Source of the DNA: an uncultured Gemmatimonadales bacterium
Lineage (GTDB): Bacteria; Gemmatimonadota; Gemmatimonadetes; Gemmatimonadales; Gemmatimonadaceae
Assembly: GCA_963851265.1 (NCBI GenBank)
Contig: CAWKNZ010000008.1
Coordinates: 128,001 to 192,000 of the forward strand
DNA: 64,000 nucleotides
Direction of reading: 5' to 3'
Below the pieces are notes generated by a model, which saw only the letters and a program-made list of their open reading frames with translations, was not told the origin of the DNA and did not search any database. Below are positions 7,812 to 38,205 of the stretch, piece by piece. Positions within the stretch are counted from its first letter, which is position 1. Every line of letters begins with the position of its first letter. The translations under genes were made by a program, and so were the position numbers.

Positions 7812-7859
7812 GGGGACGGGCCTCGGGTGGGCGGCTTGGGTGGTCGAAGCGGTCGGGCG

Positions 7860-13408: not shown

Positions 13409-14667
13409 AGCCCGACCGCCTGCTTGATCATCGGGACCACCATCTCGATGGGCCGGCGCGTGGCCACGGCGACGTTGGCCGAAGCGAGCGTCCCGCTCGC
13501 GACCTTGACCGGCGGACCGCCCGAGGACGTCCAGCGGTACTGGCTCACCGTGCGCGGGTCGACCACGAGGTCGGCGCGCACCTCGTAAGGCGCGTCCTGG
13601 CCGGAGAGCGACTGCACGAGGCGGTCGTTCTTCAGCACGCGCATCATGCCGCGCGCCGTGGCCGGGAACTCCGAGACGTAGGTGACCCGCGCGAGCATGA
13701 AGCCGTACTCCTCCTGCTTCACGGTCGTCGGCGCGATCTGGATGGTCATGCCGGGCTTGATGCGCTTGCCGTGCATCGAAGGCACGTAGACCACGGCCTC
13801 CAGTCCCTTGACCGCGCGCCCTTCGAGGTCGACGGTCAGCACCGGCTCGCCGGCGCCGACCATCGCGCCGCGGTCGGCGAGCACCTCGAGCACACGCCCG
13901 CTCGCGGGCGCGACGACGCGCGACGCCTCGCCGAGCTGGCGTTCGAGTTCCGCGACGTGCGCCGCCTGCTCGTCGACGTGCGCCTGGCTCGCGCGCGCGT
14001 CGCCGGCCGCGCCGAAGCGCGTGTCGGCCCCGCGGGCGTCGATCGAGGCGAGCTGGCTCTTCGCGTCGGCGATCTTTTCGCGGGTCGCGTCGAACGACTG
14101 GCGCGTCCCGAGGAGGCTGGAGCGCGTGAGCAGCCCCTTCGCGACCAGCTGCTGCTCGGCCTCGAGCTTCTCGCCTAACGACGCGAGCGCGTGTTCGTCG
14201 GCCTCGATCCCCTGGGTGAGGGCCAGGCGCTGGCGGTCCTGGAACTCGCCCTGCAGCCGGACGTTCTCGACGCCGCGGCGCAGCTGCTGCGCGTGCTGGT
14301 CACGCAGGGTGGCGAGCGTGGCCTTGGCCTGGTGCAGCTGGTTGGCGAGGTCGGGCTGCTCGATCCGCGCGACGACCTGCCCCTCGTGCACCTCGTCTCC
14401 GACGGCCACGGCGACGTCGGCCACGCGCCCCGGCGTCGCGGGCACCACCTGCGCCACGCCGCCGCTCTTGACGAGCATGCCGAGCCCGGCGACGGTCTCG
14501 GGGATGCTACCGAGGCAGCCCCACGCGATCCCGGTGACGAGCAGCGCGCCTAACGCGGCGAGGGCCACCCACCCGCGGCCGTCCGTGACGGTCATGAGCT
14601 GGTCGAGCTGCTCGGGCGACGCGAGGCGGTCGAGCGAGACTTTGCGGAACACGGACGACTGGCTCAC
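13405..14667 (-). CDS. NHLM bacteriocin secretion protein (HlyD-like membrane fusion protein)
   Basis: FRKVSLDRLASPEQLDQLM, GKRIKPGM, KQEEYGFM, YRWTSSGGPP. Confidence 0.93.
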   Translation of the reverse strand: MSQSSVFRKVSLDRLASPEQLDQLMTVTDGRGWVALAALGALLVTGIAWGCLGSIPETVAGLGMLVKSGGVAQVVPATPGRVADVAVAVGDEVHEGQVVARIEQPDLANQLHQAKATLATLRDQHAQQLRRGVENVRLQGEFQDRQRLALTQGIEADEHALASLGEKLEAEQQLVAKGLLTRSSLLGTRQSFDATREKIADAKSQLASIDARGADTRFGAAGDARASQAHVDEQAAHVAELERQLGEASRVVAPASGRVLEVLADRGAMVGAGEPVLTVDLEGRAVKGLEAVVYVPSMHGKRIKPGMTIQIAPTTVKQEEYGFMLARVTYVSEFPATARGMMRVLKNDRLVQSLSGQDAPYEVRADLVVDPRTVSQYRWTSSGGPPVKVASGTLASANVAVATRRPIEMVVPMIKQAVGL

Positions 14668-16559
14668 GGGGCTCTCCGGGGGGCGGCGCGGGTGGACGGG
14701 GCAACCGCGGGTGGCGCTGGCGGCGGCGCTGCTGCTGGCGCTGCGGGCGGCGCAGCCGGTGCGGCATCGGGGTACGGGTCGCGGGCGAGTACGGCGGCGA
14801 GGCTGACCGCGGCCGTCGCGGCGGCGCTCTCGGGCCCGCCCTGTGCGCCGGGGTCGACGGCCATGCTCGCTGCGCCGAGGTCGCCGGCGACGTAGCGCAG
14901 CGTGCCGACCGCGCCCGCGTAGGTGCGGCGTGCGCCGATCTCGGCGAGTTGCGCGTTCACCAGCCCGTCCTCGGCGTAGATGACGTCGATCTGCGTGCTG
15001 ACGCCGAGGCGGAACTTCTGCTTCTCGTTCTCGACGACCTCGCGCGCGAGGCGGACGGCGTCGCCGGCCTCGGCGAGGGCGCGGCGGCCGCGCTCGACGC
15101 CCGCGGCGGCCACGCCCATCGCGCTCTCGACCTGGCGCGCGAGGTCGCGTTCGCCGATGCGCGCCTGCTCGAGCGCGGCCTCGGCCTCCTCGGCGCGCCC
15201 GCGCGCGGCGAGGCGACGCGCGGGCAGCTCGTACTGCAGCTGCACGACGGTGTTGGTGCCGGGCAGCGTGCGGCCGAGCGGCGAGACGAAGCCGTTGAGC
15301 CCGAAGCCCTGCGTGAGGCCCGCGTAGCTGGCGCCCACGGTGAGGTCGACGCGCGGGCGCAGGTCGTGGTTGGCCGCGGCGAGGGCCTGGGACGCGGCCT
15401 CGCGCCGCGCGGCGGCGGCGAGGATGTCGGGGCGGCGGCCGAGCGCCGCCGCCGACACGGTGCGGGCCCAGGCCGCCGCGCGGCGCTCGTCGGCGGCGGC
15501 GGCGCGGTCACCCGGCGCGTCCGGCGCCACGTCGGACTTCGCGTTAGGCACGACGTTAGGCGAGGCGTTGGGCGCCGCGTCGAGCCGTGCGGGCGGGAGC
15601 GACGCGATCTGCTCGGCGGGCAGCCCGAGTACGACGCCGAGGCGCTGCCGGGATTCGGCGACGGCCTGCTCGGCGGTGATGCGCTGCGCGCGCTTCCCGG
15701 CGAGGCTGCCGCGGAACTGCCGCAGGTCGGCCGCCGGGCGCGCGTCGGCGCGCACCAGCTCGGCCGTCTCGTCGACGAGCACGCGGGCGCGCTGCTCGGA
15801 CGAGCGATAGGCGGCGAGGCGCTCGCCCGCGGCGGCGTAGTCCCAGTAGGCCACGGCCGCGTCGTAGCTCGCCTGGACCGCGGCCTGGCGCAGGTCGGCG
15901 CGCGCGGCGTCGAAGCCGGCGACCGCGGAGCGGCGCGCGGCAGCGAGCGCCGCGCCCATGCGGTTGCGGGCGAGCGGCACCGTGAGGTTGAGGCCGGCGG
16001 TGGCGCGGTTGGCCGGCGCGCTCGGCAGGCCGGCGACGGTCGCCTGCTGCACGTCGAGGGTGGGCGCGATCGAGAGGCCGTTGCTGAACTGCCGCCCGAC
16101 GCTCACCTGGTAGTCGAGCACGCGCTGGCGCGTGTTGATCACGGGGTTGGCGGCGAGCGCATCCGCCGGGGCGATCGCGCCGAACTCCAAGTCGCTCTGG
16201 GTGGTGTTCGCGACCGTGGTGCGGACGACGGGGTCGAGCGGCGACTCGGCGACGGCGACCGCGCCGCGGCCGGCGCGTACCTGCTGGCGCGCGGCGCGCA
16301 GCGCGGGGCTGAGGTCGAGCGCGGCGCGCAGGGCGTCGGCGAGGGAAAAGAGGGGGGCGGGCGCGGCGGCCGCGGTGTCGGCCGAGGGGGCCGGGCGCAC
16401 GGCGGGCGCGCCGGCAGGCGGGGCGCCCACGGCGGCGCGGGGCGCCGCGGCGTGCGGCTGCGCGCCGGCCGCGACGGCGACGGCCGTGCTGGCGAGCAGC
16501 GCGCCGGTACCGAACACGCCGGCGCGGGCGAGGGCGAGCAGTCGGGGGGACGGGGGCAC
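14664..16559 (-). CDS. TolC-family outer-membrane efflux protein
   Basis: Signal peptide, LSLADALRAAL, AYWDY, RRPDILAA, EKQKFRLGVSTQIDV; GTG start after an AGGAG RBS. Confidence 0.85.
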   Translation of the reverse strand: MPPSPRLLALARAGVFGTGALLASTAVAVAAGAQPHAAAPRAAVGAPPAGAPAVRPAPSADTAAAAPAPLFSLADALRAALDLSPALRAARQQVRAGRGAVAVAESPLDPVVRTTVANTTQSDLEFGAIAPADALAANPVINTRQRVLDYQVSVGRQFSNGLSIAPTLDVQQATVAGLPSAPANRATAGLNLTVPLARNRMGAALAAARRSAVAGFDAARADLRQAAVQASYDAAVAYWDYAAAGERLAAYRSSEQRARVLVDETAELVRADARPAADLRQFRGSLAGKRAQRITAEQAVAESRQRLGVVLGLPAEQIASLPPARLDAAPNASPNVVPNAKSDVAPDAPGDRAAAADERRAAAWARTVSAAALGRRPDILAAAARREAASQALAAANHDLRPRVDLTVGASYAGLTQGFGLNGFVSPLGRTLPGTNTVVQLQYELPARRLAARGRAEEAEAALEQARIGERDLARQVESAMGVAAAGVERGRRALAEAGDAVRLAREVVENEKQKFRLGVSTQIDVIYAEDGLVNAQLAEIGARRTYAGAVGTLRYVAGDLGAASMAVDPGAQGGPESAAATAAVSLAAVLARDPYPDAAPAAPPAAPAAAPPPAPPAVAPSTRAAPRRAP

Positions 16560-16593: not shown

Positions 16594-16794
16594 TTAGGCC
16601 TGGTGGTGGTGGCCGGCGCGGAGCGCCTCGGTCCAGGTGCGGGCGAGGCCGCCGACGACGGCTTCGAGGTCGTCTTCCGAGAGCTCGTCGTCGGCGGATG
16701 CCGCGCGCGGGGTTGCCGGCGCGTGGGCGATCGGGGTGAAGGCGATCGGAGGGAGGGCGGCGGCGGGGCGCGCGGGGGTGGGCAGCAAAGACAT
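16594..16794 (-). CDS. Short double-glycine precursor peptide (core LARTWTEALRAGHHHQA)
   Basis: ELSEDDLEAVVGG motif; lies directly upstream of tolC. Confidence 0.75.
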   Translation of the reverse strand: MSLLPTPARPAAALPPIAFTPIAHAPATPRAASADDELSEDDLEAVVGGLARTWTEALRAGHHHQA

Positions 16795-17155
16795 GGGTCG
16801 GGGCCGGGAAGGGCGTGACACCGGGTCCGGTCGCGTGGGGCGCCGGGTGGGGGCGGTCTGACGCGCTGTCGAAGGGCAACCGCCGTTCCGACCTTGTCAC
16901 GAACGTAAGCGACGGCGTCGCAACGACTTGCGTTCGAAGCCGGGGCCGCGTTCCGGTCCGAATGCGCCACCCGCCACTATCTCGTAGAGCGCGGGGTCTA
17001 CGGGCGGCGGCGGACGTCGTGAGCGCCCGAGCAGCCGCGCGGTTGCCTAACGATCCGGACCCGTCTGAGGCGGCGTCGGGCGGCGCGAACGCACCGCGGG
17101 CCCCCGCCGTGGTGGCGGGGGCCCGCGCGCATCCACCCGCACAGGCGTCGAGCCG

Positions 17156-17350
17156 TCAGGCGGTCGTGTCGCCGAGGACCGTGCCGATCGTGGGCAGCAC
17201 GGGATCAAGGATGATGATCGGAGCGATGATCGGGCCGCCGATCGGGCCGAAGTGGCCGACGGACGCGCCGCCGGCGACCGACTCAAGGGCCTCGTCGCTC
17301 AGGGTTTGCTCGTCCGACGGCTTGACGTTCTGCTCGCTGTTGCTGGACAT
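17156..17350 (-). CDS. Short double-glycine precursor peptide (core ASVGHFGPIGGPIIAPIIILDPVLPTIGTVLGDTTA)
   Basis: MSSNSEQNVKPSDEQTLSDEALESVAGG; GAGG RBS. Confidence 0.8.
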   Translation of the reverse strand: MSSNSEQNVKPSDEQTLSDEALESVAGGASVGHFGPIGGPIIAPIIILDPVLPTIGTVLGDTTA

Positions 17351-18140
17351 CAGAATACCTCTCACGGTTGGGATTCGGCCCGGGGTGGGCGACCGCCCGA
17401 GGGGCAAGCGCGGGACCGGCCGGCGGGGTCGGCGCAAGTCGCACACGTGCAACACGTTAGGCTCGCGCGCGCGGCCGCGCCGCAGGCCCGGCCTGGCGCC
17501 CTGCCGCGACCGGCTAGAGCTGTGGCTCCACAGGCGGCGGCCCTCTACCGGGGGGCGCCTCGTGCGGCACGTCGCCGGTATCGAGGAGGAGCTCGACGCG
17601 CGAACGGTTCGCAGCAGCGCCGGTGCGCCGAACGGCGCGGTACGCGCGGTCGAAGCCGCGCGCGACCGCCGCACCCGGTTCGGGGACGACCTGCCCGAAA
17701 GATTCCGTTAGACGCTCGCGGCTACCCGCGATCCCGCCGTCGACCGACCCGCGCTCAGTCGCGTCGGCATACGCGCTCGGGAACAGACTTGTGCTGAGCA
17801 GCGTCGCGTCGTAGATCGCGCGGCGCGCTCACGCCCGCTGCGCCGTCGGGGTGAGCGCCGCCTCGAGGTCGAGGAGCAGCGGGTGCTCGCCGGACGGGAC
17901 GACGCTCTCGGATTGCGCTCTCCATCGCCGCCGTCGAGCGTCGACCGTCGAACATCCGAGAGACCGCGCGGAACGCCGAGAGCCTCCGGGCGGCAGCCGG
18001 GGTGGGAACGCTGCCCACTGGCGCGACACGCCGGCGGCCGACCACGGTCGGCCGCCGGTCGTCCAGCACCCGCGATGCCTAACACACGCGAGGGCGTCCG
18101 GCTGCTATCCGCCGGACGCCGCCCAACGTGCCACGCATCA

Positions 18141-18335
18141 CTACAGTTGTGGAAGCGTCGGGACGATCCACGGCGGCAGGCCTCCCGGGCCGCTGGTACC
18201 CATTTCGCAGCCGCCGGCGACGTTTTCCAGGGCCTCGTCGCTCAACTCCTCAACGGGCGGTTCGGTCGTGTCAATCTGGGACGCGCGCTGCGTGTTGTCC
18301 TGGGCGACCTTCTGCTGCTTGGTGTCGTCCTGCAT
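18141..18335 (-). CDS. Short double-glycine precursor peptide (core CEMGTSGPGGLPPWIVPTLPQL)
   Basis: EELSDEALENVAGG; GGAG RBS; lies just downstream of lanM1. Confidence 0.82.
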   Translation of the reverse strand: MQDDTKQQKVAQDNTQRASQIDTTEPPVEELSDEALENVAGGCEMGTSGPGGLPPWIVPTLPQL

Positions 18336-18505
18336 GTGAGCAATCTCCGTGAGGGGTGGTCGGTGCGTGTCACCGCGGCGGTACCGACGAGGGCAAGTAC
18401 ACGGCCGCCCACCCCTGGCCCGTAACTCGTTGAGCCGCTTGTGATTGCGGCTCGGATGTCACGGCACAGATAGACCTGGGGCTCTACGCGGTAGTACCGG
18501 GTCGC

Positions 18506-21499
18506 CTAACTACAGCACGCACGAGCGGGCAGGTCGGCTTGCAGCGGCGACGGGACGGCGCTCGGGTCGGATACGCGGAGGAGCGTGTACGCAACACCGG
18601 CGACGCCCCGCAGCAGCCCGGGCGAGAGCGATTCCGCGAGTGCCGGGTACGCGTAGCTCCGGCGGCGCCTCGCGCCCGCGACGACGCGCCCCGCGAGCAC
18701 GCGGGCGTTGTGGACGAACTCGGGCCGTCCAAGCGCCGCGGCCGCGGCGAGGTTGACCTCGACTCGCGCGAAGGCACCGCAGCAGAGCGTCCACGGTGCC
18801 CGGCCGTCCATCGCGGCGTCCGACGCCGCGCCAGCCAACGCGGAGCGCCACAGCGCCTGCTCGTCGCCCGTGCCGGCCTCCGCGGCGAGCGCCGCCGCGC
18901 ACGCAAGGCCCAATCCGGGCGTGCCGCGACACCAACCACGGATCGTCGACGGACCACGCCCGCACTCGCGGCCGTCCGCCGCAGCGGTCAACGCTGCGCG
19001 CACCTCCGGCGACGCGAACCGTTCGTCACCGGCGCGCGTGCCGAGCCGGAGGAGTGCGGCCACCACGCCGGGGGGCCCGTGACCGAACCCGGGCTCGCCA
19101 ACCCTCCACTCGCACCGCACTAGGAGCCACTCGCCCCAGGCCAGGGCGAGATCAAGGGCGTCGGCGTCACCCGTAACGCCGTGTACGGCGAGGGCCCCGA
19201 GTACGCCGCCCGCCGCGCCGGCGAAAACGTCCGCCAGCACGCGGGGACGCGGCGGGCCCATTCGCACGAGCGCCGCGCGTGCCGCTTCGAGTAAACCGGC
19301 GTCGCCGAGGAAAGCCGCCGCACTCGAGAGCGCATACGCGATGCCGCCCCACCCCACCGCCAGCCCGGGTCCGGACGACACGGTACGGCGCGCCGGCTGC
19401 CGCGCGGAGTCGCACACCGGGCGCAGCGCGCGGTACGCCCACTCAGTCGCCTCGTCCGCATCGATTCCGTGTCCGCGCAGCACGTACGCGTGTGCGGCGA
19501 AAAACAACCCGATCCCTGCCCGTCCCGCCTCCAACCCGTCGCCGGCGGCAGCGATCCACCGCTGACCCCCGCCGACATCCTGCGCGTACCAGCGCGCGCC
19601 GCCCCCGGGCGACGTCGCAGCGACCGACCGGAGCAACGCGGCGAGTTGCCCCGCCTCGGCGAGCGCCTGGTCCGGCGTCAGCGGAGCGCCGTCGACCGGC
19701 GCTGCGGCGTCATGATCGCTGTCCCTCCTGCGTCGATGCCGGTCGGCGGCTAACGCGATCTTGATGTGATGAAGTTGACGGCGAAGCCGCGCGTCGCTCA
19801 TCTGCGCGACCCCGCGCCGGACGCTCGCGTACCCCGACATGCTGGCGTACCCCGCGACGAGTACTTCGCCCCCGGGCCCACACAAGTCCGTGCCGTCGGC
19901 AGGGACGGTGAAGATGGGCACGTCCGACCGCTGCATGGCATCGCGCTCCGCGTCCAACGTGGGCCACAGCCCCGGCCGTTCAGCGGCGCGGAGGTACGGG
20001 CCGCGGAGGACGTCGAGCTCCGCCAGACGCTTGGCCTCCCCGCCGAGGAAGTCGGGGTGCGTCGTGCGGCGCAGCAGCACCAGATACACCGACGTCGCCC
20101 GCAATAACACGCGTGACGCTCCGCCCGCGAACGCGGCGAGCGGGCCGGTGCCGGAGAGGAGTTCGGCCCGGCGCGCGCCCAGAACCTGATACGTCCGCCG
20201 AAACCCGCGCTGCACGGCCGCCGCAGCCGCCGTCGCGTCATACCCCCGGACCGCGGTTCGCGGCTCACGGGCTTGCGCTTCCGATTGCGGGTCCGTTGGA
20301 AGGCGCGTACGCGAGCCCCAGTGCATGGCGTCCGTGTTGACCTGCGTCCACCACGGCCCGTCCTGCCCGGGCGCGGCGGCGCGGGCACTCGTGTCGAAGT
20401 TAGGCAATAGGATTCCGCCTTCTAGGTAGCCGACGCCGTTGCCGGCCACCCTCGCTTCGGGCAGCAACCCGGTGTCGAGCACGCTCGGCTCGAGCCCGTC
20501 GTGGGCGTGTGCTCCCTCCGACGGAACCGGCCGGCAAAGCACCTCCAAGTCGATCATCACGGGATGTTCACCGGCCGCCACCACGTTCTCGGAGTGCAAA
20601 TCGCTGCCGCGCAGCACGTGCGCGAGGCAGAGGACCGCGCCCATGCGCTCGAAGTAGCGCGCGGACGCTGCCTCGTCGGCACACGGCGACGCAGCCGCGT
20701 GCTCGGCCCACCCGTGCGTGCCGCGGTCCAAGACTCGCAGCGCACGTGGACGCGGGGTGCCAGGCGGTAAAGCCTTGTCTAGCCAGGCTACGAGTTCGGC
20801 GTACGCGACGTCGAACACCAGCGAACGCGGCTTGTAAACGACCGGGCCCCCATGCGGGGGGTGGAGGATGGCGACTTGTCGCGCGTGGGCGTGTGGGTCG
20901 GAAAGACCCGCCTCGACGCGCAGGATGCGCCCGACCTTCCCGCGCCCCAGCGCCGCCGCAACAGCACACGCGTCCGCGGCGAACCGGACGAGCAGCTCCG
21001 CCGTCGCGTCGACCCAGTCGGCGACTAACGTCGCGACGAGGCGCGCGAGCACGGGGTGGGCAGCGAACAGGTCGCCGAGCCCACCCGCGAGCTGCGCACG
21101 AACGAACGCGGCGTACGCGCCAGGGGGCCGGTCCGGGTACCCGGAGTTGTAAACCCGGTAGAGCGCGCGCGTCGACAGCTCGGAGACGCGGGCCAGCAGT
21201 ACCCGCTCAACCCCGGCGTGCGCGGCGCCGGTGAAGCACGCGTACGCCCGCCGTCCGGATGCACGGCGCACGCGCCGCCGCGCCACAACGAGCAGGGGCG
21301 CCCAGACGTGCTCGAAGGGGACCGGCGCCCCCGGCGTGAACGCGCGGTCGCGCGGCAGCACTGTGGCGCCGGGCGCAGCACGCGTCGCAATCCGGTATGA
21401 CGCGTGCCGCAGCTCCGTTAGGAGGGCCGCTCCGAGCCCGTCTTCCCTTGCGCCGTTCCCGCACCGCACGGACTCATTTCTGCGCGTCGTACCAGTCAT
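18506..21499 (-). CDS. lanM: Class II lanthipeptide synthetase LanM (copy 1)
   Basis: Dehydratase motifs VYKPR, SDLHSENVV, IDLE, RVLLRATSVY; cyclase motifs GFGHG, GWCRG, LCCG; the true start may lie slightly downstream. Confidence 0.9.
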   Translation of the reverse strand: MTGTTRRNESVRCGNGAREDGLGAALLTELRHASYRIATRAAPGATVLPRDRAFTPGAPVPFEHVWAPLLVVARRRVRRASGRRAYACFTGAAHAGVERVLLARVSELSTRALYRVYNSGYPDRPPGAYAAFVRAQLAGGLGDLFAAHPVLARLVATLVADWVDATAELLVRFAADACAVAAALGRGKVGRILRVEAGLSDPHAHARQVAILHPPHGGPVVYKPRSLVFDVAYAELVAWLDKALPPGTPRPRALRVLDRGTHGWAEHAAASPCADEAASARYFERMGAVLCLAHVLRGSDLHSENVVAAGEHPVMIDLEVLCRPVPSEGAHAHDGLEPSVLDTGLLPEARVAGNGVGYLEGGILLPNFDTSARAAAPGQDGPWWTQVNTDAMHWGSRTRLPTDPQSEAQAREPRTAVRGYDATAAAAAVQRGFRRTYQVLGARRAELLSGTGPLAAFAGGASRVLLRATSVYLVLLRRTTHPDFLGGEAKRLAELDVLRGPYLRAAERPGLWPTLDAERDAMQRSDVPIFTVPADGTDLCGPGGEVLVAGYASMSGYASVRRGVAQMSDARLRRQLHHIKIALAADRHRRRRDSDHDAAAPVDGAPLTPDQALAEAGQLAALLRSVAATSPGGGARWYAQDVGGGQRWIAAAGDGLEAGRAGIGLFFAAHAYVLRGHGIDADEATEWAYRALRPVCDSARQPARRTVSSGPGLAVGWGGIAYALSSAAAFLGDAGLLEAARAALVRMGPPRPRVLADVFAGAAGGVLGALAVHGVTGDADALDLALAWGEWLLVRCEWRVGEPGFGHGPPGVVAALLRLGTRAGDERFASPEVRAALTAAADGRECGRGPSTIRGWCRGTPGLGLACAAALAAEAGTGDEQALWRSALAGAASDAAMDGRAPWTLCCGAFARVEVNLAAAAALGRPEFVHNARVLAGRVVAGARRRRSYAYPALAESLSPGLLRGVAGVAYTLLRVSDPSAVPSPLQADLPARACCS

Positions 21500-21650
21500 T
21501 CATCTTCTGTATCACCCAATCGATCACGTCACCGCCGGCAACGGACTCGAGTTCGTCGTCGTTGAGCACCCCATCGGCGTCCTCACGTGCCGGGGCGGTC
21601 GCGGTATCAGGGGTAGGGGGGGTGCTCGGGGTCTGCTCGGAATCCGCCAT
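21474..21650 (-). CDS. Short double-glycine precursor peptide (core DVIDWVIQKMNDWYDAQK)
   Basis: MADSEQTP...VLNDDELESVAGG; GGAGG RBS; lies directly upstream of lanM1. Confidence 0.8.
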   Translation of the reverse strand: MADSEQTPSTPPTPDTATAPAREDADGVLNDDELESVAGGDVIDWVIQKMNDWYDAQK

Positions 21651-22135
21651 GGTGGTGTCCTCCGGTGTGCGAAGCAGTGTGCGATTCGCCGCGTACGGCC
21701 GCCTTCGACCGTGATTCGAGGGCAGACGGCGTGCACGGCCCGCGGCTTTGCGCAAATCGTTGGTGCCTTGGACTTGCACGTTTCGATCGGCACCGTCGCC
21801 GCACGCATGTTGCGCCCCCGTGCCGGCCCGTAGAGCCAGGGCGCTATCGCCGCCCTGGTGGCGCGTCCTGAACATCGGCGCCGAACACCGCACAGCGATG
21901 TCCGCGGGGAAGGCCGGCAGCAATGTCACCACTCACCGCGGTGAAGCCGTGCAGCGCCCAACGACGCCGAGGGCGCGGACGCACACCGCCATCAAGGGCC
22001 GGTGCCCGTCGACGTGCCGGCCGAGTGGATCACAGCCACGCGGCGTATCGCCTAATACGGCTACGGCGCTGGGGCGACTGGAGCGTCGTCGGCAGAATGT
22101 CGGCCACGGCGTCAGCGTTGCCCGTTCGAACTCCG

Positions 22136-23285
22136 TCACTCGTACGCGTACACCACCTTCCCGAAGCGCTCGCGGTCGTTGAATGTGCGATTGAGGAACG
22201 GCGCGACGTCGTCACCGGTGAATACGGAATCTGTCACCACGAGCAGCGCGCCCGCGGCATAGTCGCTCAATGCCCGCTCAAGTCCGTCGCTGAGGCCGAT
22301 GCAGTTGCCGACGATCGACAAGTTCTTCATGATCGCGGTCTGGAGGAGACTGGTCAGCCCGAACGGATTCCACACCGGCAGTGCGCGCCGCGTGAGGACT
22401 CTGGCCCGCGAAGCCGCACGTGATGTACGTCCCGAACGGCTGCCAGCAGCTCCAACGCGTCTTCCGCGACATGCAGGTCGAAGAACGGATCCAGCACAGC
22501 TTGGAAGCTGGAGGCCCGCCGCGGCCACGGCCGCCGCAAGCGCGCCGGCAGTCCCGGGCTCACGGGGTGCCCCAGCAGCCGCACGCGGCACGACGAGGAC
22601 CTCGGACACTCCGAGCGCCCGAATCTCGTCGGCGCGATCTTCCGACGTCGTCGACGCGTAAATCTCCGCGCTGCTGGACGCGGAGTGCCCCGATGAGCGC
22701 GAGCGACGTGTTGGAACTTCCCGCCGTCACCAGCACCCGCGTCCCCGGGCCGATGCCGGCGCGCCGAACCATGCTGTATGCGGTCTGTGCGTTCAGCGCG
22801 AACCCGGCGGCGACTGCGTCCGGCATGCACGCCGGGATCGCGGCGAGCTTCTGTTCCGGGATCACCTGCCACTCGCGCGACGCACGGTTACTGACGACCC
22901 CTTCCCGCACGCCGCCAGGCGGCGTGGCCGCACCCGTGTAGTGCTGGTCGGGGACCACGCGGTCGCCCGGGCGGAGCCCCGTCACCTCCCGCCCGACCGC
23001 GGCGACGACGCCGGTGAATTCTGAGCATATCGGAACGAAGCGGCGCGGCGGCACCGACGCCATCAGGCGGACGAAGGCGCGGTCACGGTAGTTGCACGAT
23101 GTGGCCGTGACTCGTACGAGCACCCGGCGCGCATCGTCCGCCCCCTGCGGGTCGAACCGCGGCGGCGACGTGTGAACGACGCCGCACCCGACGGTCGCGC
23201 CGTCTACGGTGACGGCCCGAGGGGCGCCGAGCCCAGCGGTGCTCAGCCGGCGCGCGCGGCCCCCAAATACGACGACGTTTCGCAT
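22136..23285 (-). pseudogene. lanJ: Zn-dependent MDR-family dehydrogenase, LanJ(A)-like dehydroalanine reductase; about four frameshifts
   Basis: TSCNYRD, SEFTGVV, GDRVVPD, AQTAYSMVRR, VLVTAGSSNTSL. It continues across frames as EIYASTTS, FQAVLDPFFDLH, PFGTYITCGF, NLSIVGNCIG, RFGKVVYAYE, with shifts near 22680, 22510, 22440 and 22365. Confidence 0.7.
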
Positions 23286-23322
23286 CAGCGTGAGGGGCAG
23301 GGTAGGTGGGGACCCCAGCGTG

Positions 23323-26300
23323 TTAGGCCCACAGGAGCACATTCGGGACGACGTCCGGCGCCGCCAGCCGCAGCAACTGGTAGCCGATCCCGGCGCTCCC
23401 CTGTGCAAGTCCTACCGCGATCGCCCCCCATCCGGTGTTGTACGCGCCGTCGACGCTGGCGCGCGCCATCACGTGGTCGGCGGCACCGCGGGCCTCGGCG
23501 ACGAGTTCGGGGCGGCGGAGGTGCCGCCCCGCACTCAGCAGAAGCTCGGTACGCCCCATGACGCCGCAGCACAGCGTGTCCGGGCCGGCGAGGAGCCGGT
23601 CCCGCGTGCGGCGCACGGCGGCATGCACCTCGGGTGAGACGTCCGGCCACGCGTCGGCTGCATCGGTCGCGGGACGGGTCACGGCCAGCCGGGCCAGACC
23701 GATGCCGCCCGCGCCGCGAGCCCACGCGGCCCGCGCGTCGTCGTCCCCCGAGAGCCCGCAGAGTTCTGGGCCCAGCACGGTGCGCTCGTACGCGAAGGCG
23801 TCCGCCGACGCCGACGCGAAGCGGGCCTCGCCGGTCGCTGTGGCCAGGCGGTGCAGCGCGTACGCGATCCCCGCATGCCCGTGCGCCATGCCAGTCTCGG
23901 GCTGGCCGCGCGGGCCGGGCCAGTACCCCGCCGCCGTCGCGCCGGCGCCTTCCCGCCGCCGCAGCAGGTGGTCGCCCAGCGCCACGGCGCGCTCCAGCGC
24001 CGCGCCGCCCGGCGCGTCGGCGAGCGCGAGCAGGCCGAGGATCGCGCCAGCCGACCCGGCCATCAGGTCACCACTGTCCCGTTCCTCGACGCACGCGACG
24101 TCGATCAGCGCGGCAACATCGGCGGCGGCGTGCATTGTCGCGGTGTCGTTAACGAGGGTACCCAGGCGGGCGAGGGCGTACGCCGTGGAGCCGAGGCCGG
24201 TGCCGGCGCCTACGTCCGTCCAGCGCCGCACGCGCACGGAGCGTCGCAGGTCGGGGAGGTGGGCGTGGAGCGGACGCAGTGACGCGAGCGCCTGGTCCGC
24301 GAACCGCCCGTCGCCTGTGACCCTGGCCAGCACCGCCAGGAAGAGGGCGAAGCCCACGTATCCGTCGAGCAGGTTCGCTGGCGCCGCGCCGAGCACGTAG
24401 CGTCGCGACGCCGCGTGGTACATGGGCGCGACCCACGCCCCCACCGCACACCGCCGCGCGCGCGACCGGGCGATCACGCGCTCCGCGATGGCGACGCCTG
24501 CGGCGAGCGCGCGGTCCGTGAAACCGTCGCCGGCCGCGGCGGCCGTGTCCGAGGGAATCGGCACCCCGGCGACCTTCGCGCGGCGGGCCCGCCGCTCCGC
24601 CGGCGGAGCGGCGGGCCCGCGCACGTCGTCCACGTCGACGGCCGCGAACGAGGCGCGGATGAGCTCGACCTGCGCCTCCTCGTCCTCGGGGCTGAGCGCG
24701 CGCATGCGCCGTACGGCCATGTCGAATGCCGAGGTCCGGAAGCACCCCTCGATCACGTCTCCGGTCGGAAGCACCAAGGCGGTGCTGTCCGCGTCGGCCG
24801 TGAACAGGGGAATGTCGAGCCGCTCGAGTGCTTCTTGCTCGGCGCGCAGGACGGGCCAGATCGTCGGCCGATCGGCGCGCGTCAGGAACGTGCGGCACAG
24901 CACGTCCAGCTCCACGCCGCGGCGCACGCCGTCGCGCAACAGGTTGGGGTGGTTGCAGCGCTCGAGCAGCGCCGCGTACAGGCTGGTGTTGCGCAGGATG
25001 AAGCGGACGCGCTGCCGCCGCATGCACGCGATCGGGCCACCCGGCGCCAACACCTCGTCGCGGCCGGCGAGGAGGGCGGCGTAGGTCCGCCGGAACCCCA
25101 CGACGAGCGCCTCCACGTGCTCACGCGCGGTAACCGCGCGGCCGTTCACCATCGGGAGGTTCGCGGGGTGCCGTTGGGCCGGCGCGCGCACTCGAACGGG
25201 CCGCATGGCCGCCGTATTCGCGGCAACCCACGTGCTGACCACCGAGTCGTCGGTGGGCTGCGCGCCCGCGCGAAACGCGCCCACCTCAACCGCCCCCCCC
25301 GAGTCGTCGACCTTGAGTTGTGGCAGCATGTGCAAGGCGAGCACGGAATCGAACAGGAAACGGCGGGCGGTTCCGTCGGCCATCGCCTGGTCGGGCGGCT
25401 CGTCGGTCGGCGCGAAGTCAGGGCTGAGCAGCGTCTCCAGATCGATGAGCACCGGCTGGTCGCCGGCAGCGATCAAGTTTTCGAAGTGGAAGTCCGATCC
25501 GTTGAGCGCGTACGCGATGCACAACAGCGCCCCGCACCGCTCGTAGAACCGGGCGACGTCGCCCTCGCGCGCGCACGGGGCGTGGGCGGCGAACTCCAGC
25601 CACCCGTGTGTCGGGCGCGCCACCACGCGCAACGGCGCCAGCGACAGCGCGGGCGCGCGGGCGTTGAGCCACCGCGCGAGGTCGCCGAAGCACTCCTCCA
25701 GCCCGACCGGGCGCGGCTTGTAGACCACCCGGTGGCCGCCGGCAAAGTGTAGGATCATCACGCCGCGGCCGCCCTCGTGCGGATCGGAGAGCGAGCACGA
25801 GAGGTCGACGACGGGGCCGAGCGGCTTCCCACCCGCCAGCACGTCGCGGATGCGCTCCGCGTCGTCGGCGAGGCGCGCGATCAGCTCCGCTGCGGCTTCA
25901 ACCCACAGGTCGACGATCGTCGCACACAGCCGAGCGGCCACGGGATACTCGACGAAGAACGCCCGCATGCCGCCGGCGCGCATGCCCGCGACGAAATCCG
26001 CGTACGCGTCGCCCGCCGTCGGCCCCATGCCCAGTGCCGCGTGCCGGCAGACCCGGTCGACCGAGAACGACACGAACAGCGCGCGCGCGCACGTCTGGCT
26101 GAGCCGCTGGAGGGCGGCTCCTTCCAGCGCGGCGTGCGCCTGCGGGGTCAGGAGGTCGTGCGCCGGCCCGACTCGCGCCCGTACGCGCTCGCGAGCGACC
26201 CGCATGAGCGGCGCGAATACGTCGCCGAACGCCACGGCAGCCGCGCCGCCGGCGGACGGCACCTCGACCGCTTCGGCGGCGGGCGCCGCTTGTAGCCGCG

Positions 26301-26610
26301 GCCCGTACGCGGCTGTGAGTGTGGCCGACCACCCGAGGTCGGCCGGCGTCGGGTCGGTGTCCCCCAGCATCCGCGCGACCACCGCGGGATCGAGCCCGTC
26401 CCACGTGAGGCGCCGATGAAGGCTGGGCCAGTCACCGCGGCTGAGGGTGGCGCACCACCCCTGCAGCTCGGGCGGTTGGACGCCCGCGTCGTGGCCCGCG
26501 TCGTGGCCCGCGCTACGCCGCCGCACACCATCGAGCCGAGACTGAAGTGTGGCGGCGCGCGTGAGCGAGAGCAGGACGGCGCCGTCGCGGGCGGTGTGAG
26601 CAAGCGTCAT
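23323..26610 (-). CDS. lanM: Class II lanthipeptide synthetase LanM (copy 2; cyclase WCxG changed to WARG)
   Basis: VYKPR, SDFHFENLI, IDLE, RFILRNTSLY; cyclase motifs GMAHG, AWARG, LCCG. Confidence 0.92.
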   Translation of the reverse strand: MTLAHTARDGAVLLSLTRAATLQSRLDGVRRRSAGHDAGHDAGVQPPELQGWCATLSRGDWPSLHRRLTWDGLDPAVVARMLGDTDPTPADLGWSATLTAAYGPRLQAAPAAEAVEVPSAGGAAAVAFGDVFAPLMRVARERVRARVGPAHDLLTPQAHAALEGAALQRLSQTCARALFVSFSVDRVCRHAALGMGPTAGDAYADFVAGMRAGGMRAFFVEYPVAARLCATIVDLWVEAAAELIARLADDAERIRDVLAGGKPLGPVVDLSCSLSDPHEGGRGVMILHFAGGHRVVYKPRPVGLEECFGDLARWLNARAPALSLAPLRVVARPTHGWLEFAAHAPCAREGDVARFYERCGALLCIAYALNGSDFHFENLIAAGDQPVLIDLETLLSPDFAPTDEPPDQAMADGTARRFLFDSVLALHMLPQLKVDDSGGAVEVGAFRAGAQPTDDSVVSTWVAANTAAMRPVRVRAPAQRHPANLPMVNGRAVTAREHVEALVVGFRRTYAALLAGRDEVLAPGGPIACMRRQRVRFILRNTSLYAALLERCNHPNLLRDGVRRGVELDVLCRTFLTRADRPTIWPVLRAEQEALERLDIPLFTADADSTALVLPTGDVIEGCFRTSAFDMAVRRMRALSPEDEEAQVELIRASFAAVDVDDVRGPAAPPAERRARRAKVAGVPIPSDTAAAAGDGFTDRALAAGVAIAERVIARSRARRCAVGAWVAPMYHAASRRYVLGAAPANLLDGYVGFALFLAVLARVTGDGRFADQALASLRPLHAHLPDLRRSVRVRRWTDVGAGTGLGSTAYALARLGTLVNDTATMHAAADVAALIDVACVEERDSGDLMAGSAGAILGLLALADAPGGAALERAVALGDHLLRRREGAGATAAGYWPGPRGQPETGMAHGHAGIAYALHRLATATGEARFASASADAFAYERTVLGPELCGLSGDDDARAAWARGAGGIGLARLAVTRPATDAADAWPDVSPEVHAAVRRTRDRLLAGPDTLCCGVMGRTELLLSAGRHLRRPELVAEARGAADHVMARASVDGAYNTGWGAIAVGLAQGSAGIGYQLLRLAAPDVVPNVLLWA

Positions 26611-26745
26611 GGTGCGGCGTCGGGCGTGGCGAGGGCGGTGACCGAGGACGTGGTGAACTCCTGCCGGCAGGCCGGCCCGAGGCGCGGGCAGCGGTGGTCG
26701 GCTGCCGCGCGCCCCGAACGTCGGCGTGGCGCCGGCGGGAGTGGG

Positions 26746-27126
26746 TCAGTGCGTGGCCAGGTAGACGTCGGCGCCGGCGAGCGCGCCGGCAAGCGCCCAG
26801 AGGGCGATGGCAGCTAGCGGCGGCGACCCGCCGGCGACGGCTTCCAACTCCTCGGCCGACAGCTCGACGTTCGGGTCGACGAAGTCCGGCAGCACGAGCG
26901 TCGCGTCGCCCTGGTTCTCGACGAACTTCACGTTCCACGTGGCGTGCAGCTCCTCGGCTGGGCGGCCGACGAACTCGGCGAGCGCGGCGCGCGGGTCGGC
27001 GATGAGCTTGGTGCGGAAGCCGCGGTCCGTGGCCGACCGGGAGAGCATCGACCGGATGGCATCTTCGGCCTGTTTGGCGAAGGCAGGATTCGTGGCGAAC
27101 AGTTCGGCAGTCTGGCGCGTGTCCAT
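26746..27126 (-). CDS. NHLP-leader precursor (core SPPLAAIALWALAGALAGADVYLATH)
   Basis: RSATDRGFRTKLIADP...VKFVENQGDATLVLPDFVDPNVELSAEELEAVAGG. Confidence 0.9.
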   Translation of the reverse strand: MDTRQTAELFATNPAFAKQAEDAIRSMLSRSATDRGFRTKLIADPRAALAEFVGRPAEELHATWNVKFVENQGDATLVLPDFVDPNVELSAEELEAVAGGSPPLAAIALWALAGALAGADVYLATH

Positions 27127-27164
27127 GACGGGGCCCTCTGGGGTGAAGGTGTTGGGTGGGAGCG

Positions 27165-27533
27165 CTACTTGGTGGCGGCCTGCGCCGCCCATGCGCCGAC
27201 GGCCATGCTACCGACGAAGATCATGAGCCCGATGGCGATCGGATCCGAGCCGCCGGAGACCGCCTCGAGCTCCGACTCCTGCAGCTCGGCGTCGGGGTCG
27301 ACGAACGGGGGAAGCACGAGGGTGGCGTCGGCCGTGTTCTCGACGAAGCGCACGTCCAGGCGCTCGGGGAACGCGGCGCCGAGCGCCTCGTGGAGGGCCG
27401 CACGGGGCTCGTCGAGGAGCTTGCGGCGGAAGTCGGCGTCGGTGGCGGAGCGCGTCAGCACGGAGCGGATTTGGGCGATCCCCTGCTCCGCGAGCTCGGG
27501 GTGCTGCTGGGCGATGGCGACGGTCGTGTTCAT
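27165..27533 (-). CDS. NHLP-leader precursor (core SDPIAIGLMIFVGSMAVGAWAAQAATK)
   Basis: RSATDADFRRKLLDEP...VRFVENTADATLVLPPFVDPDAELQESELEAVSGG. Confidence 0.9.
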   Translation of the reverse strand: MNTTVAIAQQHPELAEQGIAQIRSVLTRSATDADFRRKLLDEPRAALHEALGAAFPERLDVRFVENTADATLVLPPFVDPDAELQESELEAVSGGSDPIAIGLMIFVGSMAVGAWAAQAATK

Positions 27534-27633
27534 GAGAGTGGGTGGCGGTGGGTCAGGGTGGTGGGACGCGCGGGCTGGCGTCGGCGGACGTTAGGCGTTC
27601 GGGGGCGCCCCGCGGCGGGGGCACCGGCCGCCG

Positions 27634-28001
27634 CTACTTCATGTCCGAGATCATCTTGATCGCGGAGATGACCCCGAGGATGCTCGCGACGATCGAGCCG
27701 ATGCACGGGTCCGTTCCGCCGGCGATGGCCTCGAGCTCCGACTCTTGGAGCTCGGCCTCGGGATCGATGTAGTCCGGGAGCACGATCGTGGCGTCCGCCG
27801 TGTTCTCGACGAAGCGCAGGTCGAGGTCGCCGATGTCGCCGCCGGTCGCCTCCTGGAGCGTCTCGCGGGGCTGCGCGATCAGGCGCTGGCGGAACGCGTG
27901 GTCGGTGGCCGACCGGCTGAGCACGGTCCGGATCCTGTCGTGGTACTCGCGGACCTCCTCGGGCGGTCGGCGGCGATGCGCTCGATCGTTTCGACGTTCA
28001 T
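27634..28001 (-). CDS. NHLP-leader precursor (core TDPCIGSIVASILGVISAIKMISDMK); apparent 1-nt deletion near 27961
   Basis: CAGGAG RBS plus ATG at 28001 (MNVETIERIAADRP) joins EEVREYHDRIRTVLSRSATD...ELEAIAGG if one base is added to a short C run. Confidence 0.82.
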
Positions 28002-28355
28002 GGTGCGGCTCCTGTTGGGAGAAGGGTGATGGTAACGACATGCAACAAAATCGGGGTGCTGTCCGATCGGTCCTCTCGGAGGGCAACGCGCGTACCTCGC
28101 GCGGCGGTCACGTAAGCCGTTGGTGTACAACGACTCGCACGTACGCGCCGTCGCCGCGACCGGCGCCGCGGCGCGCCCGCGCTCTACGGCGTAGGGCCAC
28201 GGCTCCACCGCCGGGCGGCGGGTGGGTCGGGCGGCGAGCGCACCCGACGGAGGGCGCGGCAGGCGGGCGCGGGCGCACGGGTCTTGCACGCGCCGACGGC
28301 GTGCGCGGGGGCGCCCCGCGAGTCCGCGCCGCCACCATCTTCACATAAAAGCGTC

Positions 28356-28526
28356 ATGACAACAAACCAGCAGTACGGCGTCACGTACTTTGCCGTCGGC
28401 ACGGCGATGATCGCCTTCTACGGATTCACCTGGTACCGCCGACAGCCCCTCACGTTGATGCTCGTCATGGGGATCCTCTGCTTGGGGATGGGCGTGCTGC
28501 GCTACTTCGCCCGCGCACGCCCGTAA
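28356..28526 (+). CDS. Small two-TM membrane protein (56 aa)
   Basis: MTTNQQYGVTYFAVGTAMIAFYGFTWYRRQPLTLMLVMGILCLGMGVLRYFARARP; two hydrophobic stretches; composition unlike GC shadow ORFs. Confidence 0.65.
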   Translation: MTTNQQYGVTYFAVGTAMIAFYGFTWYRRQPLTLMLVMGILCLGMGVLRYFARARP

Positions 28527-34585: not shown

Positions 34586-34921
34586 ATGGCGGATTCAGAG
34601 CACGGCGGCCAAGGCGGCGACGCCGGGGGCCCGAAGAGCGTGGAAGCGCGGCTGACCGAGCTGGAAAACGCCGTGCGACAGATGACCGGTGGTGGCGCGG
34701 GTGGCGCTGCGGGCGCGGCGGCACCGGCCGCGCAGGGCGTGACCTGCAACACCTGTCACGTGTGCGCGATCGCGTGTCACGTGTGCGTCGTGTGCAGCGT
34801 GTGCCACGTGTGCCAGGTCTGCCAGGTGTGTCAGGTCTGTAGCGTGTGTCGGGTCTGCCACGTGTGCCAGGTATGCGCCGAATGCACCTGCGGACCGGCC
34901 AGCCCGCCGGGCGGGGCGTAG
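34586..34921 (+). CDS. Cys-Xaa-Xaa repeat TOMM precursor peptide (17 Cys)
   Basis: Leader SVEARLTELENAVRQM, Gly/Ala linker, core TCNTCHVCAIACHVCVVCSVCHVCQVCQVCQVCSVCRVCHVCQVCAECTCGP; GGAG RBS; first gene of the YcaO operon. Confidence 0.88.
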   Translation: MADSEHGGQGGDAGGPKSVEARLTELENAVRQMTGGGAGGAAGAAAPAAQGVTCNTCHVCAIACHVCVVCSVCHVCQVCQVCQVCSVCRVCHVCQVCAECTCGPASPPGGA

Positions 34922-34990
34922 TGGCGCCGTCGCTGCCGCGGGGGGCGCGCGGCGCGCCCCGCGGCACGCCCCTTCCCTCCGCCTAACGCC

Positions 34991-37435: not shown

Positions 37436-37446
37436 GGCGCGGCGCC

Positions 37447-38205
37447 ATGACGCACGACGACGACCCGGACGTCGCCCGCATCTTCCACCTGCACTCGTCC
37501 AACGTGCGGCAGCGCGTGGTGGAGCTCGCGCTCGACCACGACCGGCACCCGTTCCGGTTCCGCACGTACCCGGGCGCGCCGCGCGTCGCGCTCCCGGGGC
37601 GGGATTTCGACGGCCTCGACGTTCCGCTCGCCGAGCTGCTCCGCCGGCGCACGTCGTCGCGCGCGTTCTCGACCGCGGCCACGCTGCCCGTCGCGTCGCT
37701 CGGCCGCCTGCTGTACGCGAGCTACGGCCTCAACGGGCAGCGCGAGATCGACGGCCAGCGCCTCCACGCGCGCCCCGCGCCGTCGGCGGGCAGCCTCTAC
37801 CCCATCGAGCTCTACGTCGCGGTGCAGCGCGTGGACGGTGTGGACGACGGCCTGTACCACTACGACGCGCGGGCGCACGAGCTGGAGCTGCGCCGCCCGG
37901 GGCGCGTGCACGCGCAGCTCGCCGACATGACCATCGGCCAGACGATGCTCGCCGACGCGAACGTGGTCGTGTTGATGACGGCCGTGTTCGCGCGGACGAT
38001 GTGGAAGTACAAGCAGCGCGGCTACCGCTACGTGTGGCTCGACGCGGGCCACGTCGGCCAGAACCTCTACCTCGTGGCCGACGCCCTGGGGCTCGGGGCC
38101 GTGGCGGTGGGGGGGTTCTACGACCGCGAGCTTCACCGCCTGCTCGCGCTGCCGGACGCGGAGGAGGCGGTGGTGTATCTGGTGTGCGCGGGCGTGCGTG
38201 CCTAA
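37447..38205 (+). CDS. SagB/ThcOx-family FMN azoline dehydrogenase
   Basis: RRTSSRAF, RPAPSAGSLYPIELY, GLYHYD, WKYKQRGYRYVWLDAGHVGQN. Confidence 0.92.
   Translation: MTHDDDPDVARIFHLHSSNVRQRVVELALDHDRHPFRFRTYPGAPRVALPGRDFDGLDVPLAELLRRRTSSRAFSTAATLPVASLGRLLYASYGLNGQREIDGQRLHARPAPSAGSLYPIELYVAVQRVDGVDDGLYHYDARAHELELRRPGRVHAQLADMTIGQTMLADANVVVLMTAVFARTMWKYKQRGYRYVWLDAGHVGQNLYLVADALGLGAVAVGGFYDRELHRLLALPDAEEAVVYLVCAGVRA

What the first reader, a model, noticed from the sequence alone, without database searches (positions are those of the whole stretch)
22136..28001. LanM + LanJ-like reductase acting on Cys-poor hydrophobic NHLP cores: candidate D-amino-acid peptide pathway
Seen: three tandem NHLP precursors, then LanM2, then a Zn-MDR dehydrogenase, all on one strand. 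The cores (TDPCIGSIVASILGVISAIKMISDMK, SDPIAIGLMIFVGSMAVGAWAAQAATK, SPPLAAIALWALAGALAGADVYLATH) hold one Cys in total but ten Ser/Thr. LanM2 keeps its dehydratase motifs, while the cyclase WCxG Zn ligand reads WARG (~23713-23724). Known: LanJ(A) enzymes such as LtnJ and NpnJ are Zn-dependent dehydrogenases that reduce dehydroalanine to D-Ala. Inference: LanM2 acts mainly as a dehydratase, giving largely linear, membrane-active peptides with D-Ala/Dhb rather than classical lanthipeptides.
Basis: partly seen in the sequence, partly recalled or inferred. Interest (0 to 1): 0.85.

Follow-up and report, generated by a model that had tools for sequence, protein, structure and literature searches.

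The report
Npn-type D-alanine peptide gene cluster
A soil bacterium carries genes that most likely turn serines of three water-repelling peptides into mirror-image D-alanines instead of closing rings; this chemistry is already known from a cyanobacterium, and the key reductase gene looks broken in this assembly.

Summary
Observation confirmed: three NHLP precursors (1 Cys, 7 Ser, 3 Thr), LanM2 with all nine CylM dehydratase residues but Ala964 at the first Zn ligand, then an MDR gene. The MDR is LanJ(A)-family: LtnJ, SacJ and PenN nest in its clade, apart from 13 generic MDRs (SH-aLRT 100). As assembled it has four +1 frameshifts, all in its 3' half. An intact 380-aa version with an identical first 202 residues exists (P0001), and two low-depth contigs have the in-frame lengths, so a merged-allele assembly artefact is likelier than a dead gene (about 75:25). 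The chemistry is known from the Nostoc npn cluster, which this scan already met on other DNA (e1-2695260). Added here: in relatives 2 of 28 LanMs at LanJ loci keep the Zn triad (controls 6 of 7, 19 of 20), with at least four changes on the LanM tree, and 34 of 38 hydrophobic cores lack Cys. New member of a known kind; membrane activity untested.

The parts
27634..28001 (-). Precursor A1, NHLP leader, core at 27637-27714 (T1, C4, four Ser). One base short in the C run 27961-27963 as assembled.
   Evidence: AGGAG upstream of ATG 28001; no full-length copy among 16 hits
27165..27533 (-). Precursor A2, NHLP leader, Cys-free hydrophobic core (S1, S14, T26)
   Evidence: TIGR03793 55.5 bits; identical protein also listed from Logan
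26746..27126 (-). Precursor A3, NHLP leader, Cys-free hydrophobic core (S1, T25)
   Evidence: TIGR03793 40 bits, under cut-off; identical protein also listed from Logan
23323..26610 (-). LanM2, 1095 aa: dehydratase residues D276 H278 K298 D373 H375 N378 D390 R536 T542 kept; cyclase Zn site A964/C1014/C1015
23713..23724 (-). WARG, where CylM Cys875 / LicM2 WCHG stands; Ala codon is two changes from a Cys codon
22136..23285 (-). lanJ(A)-family MDR reductase gene; codons 1-202 identical in protein to intact P0001; 3' half with +1 shifts near 22679, 22507, 22440, 22350, a +3 insertion near 22460 and a +1/-1 pair at 22291/22283
21474..21650 (-). Short GG-leader ORF (58 aa); core has no Ser, Thr or Cys
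   Evidence: no NCBIfam hit
18506..21499 (-). LanM1, 997 aa: dehydratase motifs and full cyclase site (GFGHG, WCRG, LCCG)
18141..18335 (-). Short GG-leader precursor with Cys1, Thr5, Ser6: likeliest LanM1 substrate (inference)
   Evidence: a Cys-bearing short precursor precedes the intact LanM in L003
17156..17350 (-). Short GG-leader precursor, Cys-free, Pro/Ile-rich core
16594..16821 (-). Short GG-leader ORF, start uncertain
14664..16541 (-). TolC-type outer-membrane channel (start approximate)
   Evidence: PF02321
13405..14667 (-). NHLM secretion protein (HlyD type)
   Evidence: TIGR03794 355 bits
11078..13279 (-). NHLM ABC transporter with peptidase domain (removes GG leaders; inference from family)
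   Evidence: TIGR03796 1083 bits
7860..11081 (-). Second NHLM ABC transporter subunit
   Evidence: TIGR03797 912 bits
29094..34215 (-). Sigma-54 activator, LytTR response regulator and histidine kinase upstream; same order upstream of the precursors in L006

Best explanation
An npn-type RiPP module inside a larger NHLM cluster of a Gemmatimonadota bacterium (taxon inferred from nearest homologues). LanM2 binds the NHLP leaders and dehydrates core Ser/Thr to Dha/Dhb by phosphorylation and elimination (residues shown, activity inferred). Its cyclase lacks one Zn ligand and is probably weak or off (inferred). The LanJ(A) reductase then hydrogenates Dha to D-Ala with NADPH, and Dhb mostly stays (family membership shown, reaction inferred from LtnJ/NpnJ). 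The NHLM ABC transporter cuts at GG and exports three hydrophobic 26-27-residue, mostly linear peptides; an unreduced residue 1 would become a pyruvyl or 2-oxobutyryl cap (recalled chemistry). The frameshifts in the 3' half of lanJ are most likely a consensus merged from two or more real alleles, not decay.
For: Family: tblastn of P0001 on 72,556 plasmids gave 20 records at E<=1e-10, including the MDR gene closing the lacticin 3147 cluster on pMRC01 (31% identity, E 2e-44) and its Staphylococcus and Pediococcus counterparts (the names LtnJ, SacJ, PenN are recalled, the records say only MDR). In IQ-TREE quick trees these three nest inside the 52-row family, apart from 14 (SH-aLRT 92) or 13 (100) generic MDRs of the same genome. 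Context: of 50 GTDB loci, 34 have a LanM hit, 5 more a LanB-type elimination domain and 3 a YcaO; 46 of 50 hold the MDR in one ORF. LanM2: the nine CylM catalytic residues (PMC4550811 passages) are kept and invariant in 18 LanJ-linked LanMs, where neither Cys ligand column is; its four closest relatives also lack the first Cys. Zn triad complete in 2 of 28 LanMs at LanJ loci, 6 of 7 in genomes where P0001 found nothing, 19 of 20 LanM1 homologues. 34 of 38 hydrophobic cores in 18 loci are Cys-free. Artefact: P0001 is intact and identical over residues 1-202; all 27 minimal edits fall in the 3' 541 of 1147 nt (p 1.5e-9); 8 bases inserted against 1 deleted; 17 tested substitutions are family-tolerated (mean -0.68 bits against -3.99 for random; 0 of 5000); background is 1 frame change and 1 stop in 138 orthologues; two X1 contigs cover 110 window bases with 106 letters (4 gaps) and 147 with 147 (2 gaps), the lengths an open frame needs.
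Against: No activity was measured. The gene as assembled cannot give a whole enzyme, and A1, which has four of the five internal Ser, is also frameshifted with no full-length copy found. The X1 contigs have depth 2.3-2.5, their gap places were not listed, four of their codon changes differ from both window and P0001, and X1 may be the source sample. P0001's DNA context could not be seen. LanM2 keeps two of three ligands and the His. 9 of 15 nearest A1 homologues (context unknown) contain Cys and the best keeps TDPCIG. One of four Cys shared by LtnJ/SacJ/PenN is Gln in P0001. Only 1 of 60 sampled relatives has the gene. NpnJ itself was not in the tree.
Confidence: 0.68

Rival explanations
1. 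lanJ is really dead in this strain: its 3' half came in by recombination from a diverged allele and then decayed, so the strain makes Dha/Dhb-rich peptides without D-Ala, or nothing.
For: Six indel events in about 400 nt of an assembly with otherwise about one per 150 kb, so ordinary read noise does not explain them; A1 is broken too; 3 of 50 related loci (L006, L048, L050) also have a split gene.
Against: Decay should also hit the 5' 606 nt, which has no edit; substitutions look selected; LanM2, LanM1 and the exporter are whole; the X1 contig lengths fit an open frame.
Confidence: 0.22
2. A mixed product set: A1 closes a Thr1-Cys4 methyllanthionine (residual LanM2 cyclase, LanM1 in trans, or substrate-driven), while A2 and A3 stay linear. 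Compatible with D-Ala formation; it alters only the 'not a lanthipeptide' claim.
For: TDPCIG is kept in P0163, and S/T-x-P-C or T-x-x-x-C starts occur in P0176, P0166, P0170; LanM2 keeps LCCG and the His; LanM1 has a full site.
Against: Zn-ligand mutants of LctM lose cyclisation but keep dehydration (second-hand, PMC11356792 passage); LanM1 lies among short non-NHLP leaders and falls in another LanM clade.
Confidence: 0.35
3. The MDR does other chemistry, such as reducing the N-terminal alpha-keto cap left by Ser1/Thr1, or is an unrelated enoyl/quinone reductase.
For: All three cores start with Ser or Thr; best PDB sequence and fold matches are generic ADH/quinone reductases (about 14-24% identity in the fold search); identity to LtnJ is only 30-31%.
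Against: No chain named as a LanJ appeared in those lists; generic MDRs score -2 to 88 bits on the family profile against 308 for LtnJ; only 14 of 38 related hydrophobic cores start with Ser/Thr.
Confidence: 0.07

Closest known systems
npn cluster of Nostoc punctiforme PCC 73102 (NpnA, NpnM, NpnJA)
   Same: LanM plus LanJ(A) beside Ser/Thr-rich precursors without Cys, proposed to give linear D-Ala peptides (PMC5808125 and PMC12328550 passages); natural products not yet detected (10.64898/2026.08.14.744816 passage).
   Different: Other phylum; reductase 36-39% identical to cyanobacterial family members; one core keeps a Cys; a second, intact LanM and short precursors share the exporter; LanM2 lost the Zn ligand in its own LanM clade. 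The primary npn papers were not held, so NpnM's Zn site and leader type were not seen.
Lacticin 3147 (LtnJ), staphylococcin C55 (SacJ), rodencin (RodJA)
   Same: Same reductase clade and motifs; reductase gene directly after a lanM.
   Different: LtnM1 and LtnM2 keep full Zn triads and the cores are Cys-rich ring formers with short leaders; RodJA also reduces Dhb (PMC11519912 passages).
Pseudanabaena galeata pPg_03 LanM cluster ('cyanotin' type)
   Same: LanM without Zn ligands and a Cys-free precursor, described in PMC11356792 (passages); a plasmid of the same strain encodes a P0001 homologue (H2).
   Different: Nif11 leader; the word 'dehydrogenase' does not occur in that paper's main text; all three ligands lost there, one here.
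Bicereucin (BsjJB)
   Same: Mixed linear and cyclic D-amino-acid peptides from one LanM (title seen; detail recalled).
   Different: Flavin-dependent LanJ(B), Bacillus, short leaders.

Membership tests
LanJ(A) dehydroalanine reductases | MDR fold / zinc-binding dehydrogenase family | tested here: met
   PF08240 over cut-off; AlphaFold model of P0001 pLDDT 92, Foldseek matches to MDRs
LanJ(A) dehydroalanine reductases | Clade with LtnJ/SacJ, apart from generic MDRs | tested here: met
   (quick trees, SH-aLRT 92 and 100; outgroup from this genome only; NpnJ not included)
LanJ(A) dehydroalanine reductases | Four conserved Cys (presumed Zn ligands, PMC11519912 supplement legend) | tested here: inconclusive
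   C64, C288, C326 match LtnJ C62, C271, C310; LtnJ C115 is Gln here and Cys in 3 of 52 rows. The figure was not visible, so which four is my inference
LanJ(A) dehydroalanine reductases | Encoded beside a Ser/Thr dehydratase and precursor | tested here: met
   Window; 34 of 50 loci LanM, 5 LanB-type
LanJ(A) dehydroalanine reductases | Open reading frame in this genome | tested here: inconclusive
   Broken as assembled; intact P0001 and X1 contig lengths point to artefact
LanJ(A) dehydroalanine reductases | NADPH-dependent Dha to D-Ala conversion | not testable with these tools
   Needs co-expression and chiral analysis
Class II lanthipeptide synthetase (LanM) | Dehydratase residues D252 H254 K274 D347 H349 N352 D364 R506 T512 (CylM numbering) | tested here: met
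   9 of 9 in LanM2
Class II lanthipeptide synthetase (LanM) | Cyclase Zn triad Cys875/Cys911/His912 (or Cys) | tested here: not met
   LanM2 A964/C1014/C1015; LanM1 meets it
Lanthipeptide precursors | Cys in the core | tested here: not met
   A2 and A3 none; A1 one
npn-type linear D-Ala RiPP | LanM + LanJ(A) + Ser/Thr-bearing cores lacking Cys | tested here: met
   Met for A2 and A3; A1 has one Cys
npn-type linear D-Ala RiPP | Direct orthology to NpnJ/NpnM | tested here: inconclusive
   NpnJ sequence not obtained; Nostoc member P0150 shares 7 of 88 words with a window noted as the npn locus (lead only)
NHLM (NHLP/Nif11) exported RiPP system | NHLP leader with GG motif plus TIGR03794/03796/03797 exporter | tested here: met
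   (exporter genes over cut-off; 1 of 3 leaders over cut-off)
Membrane-active multi-peptide bacteriocin | Antibacterial or membrane activity | not testable with these tools
   GRAVY 1.0-1.1, TIGR03949 just over cut-off for A2 and A3 but spanning the leader end; not cationic

The most novel reading that the evidence does not exclude
The locus is one example of a wide, cross-phylum class of linear D-amino-acid RiPPs (Gemmatimonadota, Cyanobacteriota, Alphaproteobacteria, Bacteroidota, Acidobacteriota) that arose several times: whenever a LanM lineage paired with LanJ(A), its cyclase lost the Zn site but was kept full length, perhaps for a new job, and the cores became Cys-free hydrophobic helices. 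Clusters whose detected cores have Thr but no Ser (L013, and single cores in L001, L014, L022, L046) predict LanJ(A) enzymes that make D-aminobutyrate. The 3' half of lanJ, which covers the cofactor domain and C-terminus, may also exist as several exchanged alleles within one population.
Probability: 0.3. Interest if true: 0.65.

Novelty: new member of a known kind. Interest (0 to 1): 0.4.

Why it matters
It extends LanJ(A) chemistry, characterised in Bacillota and one cyanobacterium according to the passages read, to Gemmatimonadota and supplies dozens of intact enzyme-substrate sets for making D-Ala (perhaps D-Abu) peptides, of use in peptide engineering where NpnJ is limited to Dha. The repeated loss of the cyclase Zn site beside LanJ gives a simple rule for spotting linear D-amino-acid RiPPs that lanthipeptide surveys discard for lacking Cys (PMC7268733 passage). 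The natural role of npn-type peptides is still open. This particular locus is a poor test object because two of its genes are frameshifted as assembled; L001, L003 and G135 (L082/L094) carry whole orthologues.

Tried and rejected
General long-read noise as cause of the frameshifts: rejected, background 1 frame change and 1 stop in 138 orthologues, 50,409 aa, drawn from 11 stretches of G001/G004. Random base errors in the 3' half: rejected by family tolerance (17 of 18 substitutions tested, residue 274 beside the insertion dropped). A second copy or template of the 3' half in the genome (paralogue, retroelement): tblastn found only the locus and distant generic MDRs. X1 variants as P0001's DNA: they do not match. 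Runs X2 and X3 held next to none of the words and gave only short pieces; no RNA holder listed. JGI metagenome scan with P0001: 229 pattern hits, none confirmed. Full-length A1 elsewhere: not among 16 hits of 22 candidates. Complex prediction LanM2 residues 695-1095 with P0001: verdict 'no answer', score 0.00. Sigma-70 promoter and terminator scan: nothing above shuffles; no sigma-54 pattern match in five intergenic stretches. Careful IQ-TREE runs did not finish, so no bootstrap. LanM-LanJ fusion in L006 (1489-aa frame): read as a frameshift effect. NpnJ sequence: not found by name in five cyanobacterial clusters. Primary papers on NpnJ, NpnM, LtnJ mutants, LctM Zn mutants and the 2017 review were not held; their texts and supplements may already state NpnM's Zn-site loss or a wider survey.
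Full report
What is there. The window is G000:C8:128001-192000 of a 4.6-Mb, 12-contig, 94% complete genome. Nearest homologues come from Gemmatimonadaceae and Longimicrobiaceae, so Gemmatimonadota is inferred. On the minus strand lie a histidine kinase, LytTR regulator and sigma-54 activator, precursors A1-A3, LanM2, the MDR gene, a short GG-leader ORF, LanM1, three more short GG-leader ORFs, TolC, HlyD and two NHLM ABC subunits. The cores are as quoted: 1 Cys, 7 Ser, 3 Thr, GRAVY 1.0-1.1, net charge 0, 0, -1. Three of the ten Ser/Thr are core residue 1.

LanM2. Against CylM and LicM2 it keeps all nine residues that PMC4550811 names for phosphorylation and elimination (passages). The Zn ligands Cys875/Cys911/His912 correspond to A964/C1014/C1015. 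The Ala codon is two changes from Cys, and the four nearest relatives (L001, L003, L005, L082; FastTree support 99) have Gly or Ser there, so it is no sequencing slip. LanM1 has the full site and belongs to another clade. That loss of one ligand impairs cyclisation rests on a second-hand statement about LctM (PMC11356792 passage).

The reductase. A search with residues 1-203 gave 166 proteins among 7180 candidates, nearly all of the 120 listed being 320-395 aa; the best, P0001 (380 aa, Logan only), is identical over residues 1-202. With P0001, 20 of 72,556 plasmids match at E<=1e-10, among them the MDR gene that follows the second lanM of the lacticin 3147 cluster. I call these LtnJ, SacJ and PenN from memory; the records name only the family. 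They share the family's motifs at 29-33% identity and score 308-375 bits on a family profile where generic MDRs of this genome score -2 to 88. Quick ML trees place them inside the family, apart from 14 generic MDRs (SH-aLRT 92; 3 of 17 outgroup loci dropped for low score) or 13 after removing one long branch (100). Three of four Cys shared by the three named proteins are kept; the fourth is Cys in only 3 of 52 rows. NpnJ itself was not available.

Is the gene dead? The least edit from window DNA to P0001 is 18 substitutions, 8 inserted and 1 deleted base, all in the 3' 541 of 1147 nt. Background in this assembly is 1 frame change and 1 stop in 138 orthologues. The substitutions are tolerated by the family (0 of 5000 random sets as good), so the 3' half derives from a real, selected allele. 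In run X1 three contigs match the window exactly elsewhere (90, 220, 159 nt), while two low-depth contigs in the 3' half have 106 letters for 110 window bases and 147 for 147 with two gaps, as an open frame would need; gap places were not listed and their substitutions differ from P0001. A sharp border, an insertion bias and several alleles fit a consensus that merged haplotypes; I put this at about 75%. Against: the X1 depth is under 5, X1 may be the source sample, and A1 is also one base short with no whole copy found.

Relatives. One GTDB scan with a single peptide pattern gave 50 loci across at least eight phyla (L020 and L021 are near copies). 46 of 50 have the gene in one ORF, one is cut by a contig end and three are split. 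34 of 50 have a LanM hit, partial hits included. Of the other 16, five have a LanB-type elimination domain and three a YcaO (I scanned 50 of 147 picked ORFs, from 14 loci). L003, L005, L006 and G135 share the precursors-LanM-reductase order. The gene is patchy: 1 of 60 sampled relatives. Among LanMs with a readable C-terminus, the Zn triad is complete in 2 of 28 at LanJ loci (one is the distal second LanM of L003), 6 of 7 in genomes where P0001 found no match (the seventh lacks the domain), and 19 of 20 LanM1 homologues of unknown context. Dropped before that count: truncated, split or duplicate LanMs of L006, L011, L012, L019, L021, L031, L034, L045, L048 and L052. On a 57-row FastTree of dehydratase domains the state changes 7 times, at least 4 forced by well-supported branches (two rows left out); kin are not independent, so this is a pattern, not a test. 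A leader pattern found 51 cores in 18 loci, 43 without Cys; 34 of 38 hydrophobic ones lack Cys and 8 of 38 lack Ser. Against full linearity, 9 of the 15 nearest A1 homologues contain Cys and the best keeps TDPCIG.

Mechanism. Shown: gene content, catalytic residues, family placement, covariation. Inferred: leader-guided dehydration by LanM2; NADPH-dependent Dha to D-Ala by LanJ(A), with Dhb mostly left (RodJA is the stated exception; PMC11519912 passages); cleavage at GG and export by the NHLM transporter. A1 could carry four D-Ala and perhaps one small ring, A2 up to two, A3 one. Biological role is untested; a multi-peptide membrane-acting bacteriocin is plausible from hydrophobicity alone, and covalent oligomer formation through free dehydro residues has been proposed for related cyanobacterial peptides (10.64898/2026.08.14.744816 passage).

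Known or new. The npn cluster already shows LanM plus LanJ(A) on Cys-free precursors (passages in PMC5808125 and PMC12328550), and a Zn-less LanM with a Cys-free precursor is described for Pseudanabaena. Nine searches of the held library listed no paper whose title or abstract start describes a Gemmatimonadota LanJ or repeated cyclase loss beside LanJ, but key subscription papers were not held. I saw passages only of eleven papers and one supplement legend. Verdict: new member of a known kind; interest 0.4.

Noticed in passing
window 34586-38205 (+): Separate azole-RiPP (TOMM-type) set: a 111-aa ORF with a long run of C-x-V-C repeats, a ThiF-YcaO fusion and a SagB dehydrogenase.
   Followed up: no
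window 4874-7814 (-): A fourth NHLP precursor (TIGR03793 52.9 bits; one Ser, no Cys), DUF7005 and a periplasmic binding protein behind the exporter; DUF7005 recurs in 8 of 50 LanJ loci.
   Followed up: partly
window 16594-21650 (-): Four short GG-leader ORFs around LanM1, one with no Ser, Thr or Cys in its core; similar short precursors occur in L003, L005, L006 and L020.
   Followed up: partly
L036, L039, L040, L047, L049: LanJ(A)-family gene beside LanB-type elimination domains (TIGR03891), suggesting D-amino acids in class I-type or split-LanB RiPPs.
   Followed up: partly
L033:5908-8904; L041:3078-4847; L042:3042-4817: LanJ(A)-family gene beside YcaO, with TfuA in L033; no Ser/Thr dehydratase recognised among the ORFs scanned.
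   Followed up: partly
L013:4654-5301; L014:2094-3289; L022:389-772; L046:3002-3370: Hydrophobic cores with Thr but no Ser next to an intact LanJ(A)-family gene: candidates for D-aminobutyrate formation.
   Followed up: no
L009:6644-9964: The only LanM directly beside a family gene that keeps the full Zn triad.
   Followed up: no
window 28353-28526 (+): 57-aa hydrophobic ORF between the precursors and the sigma-54 activator, no Pfam or NCBIfam hit; possible immunity or membrane protein.
   Followed up: no
window 18506-23285: LanM1 and the reductase gene have lower third-position GC (0.84, 0.86) than the A2 and exporter genes (0.95), hinting at later acquisition.
   Followed up: no
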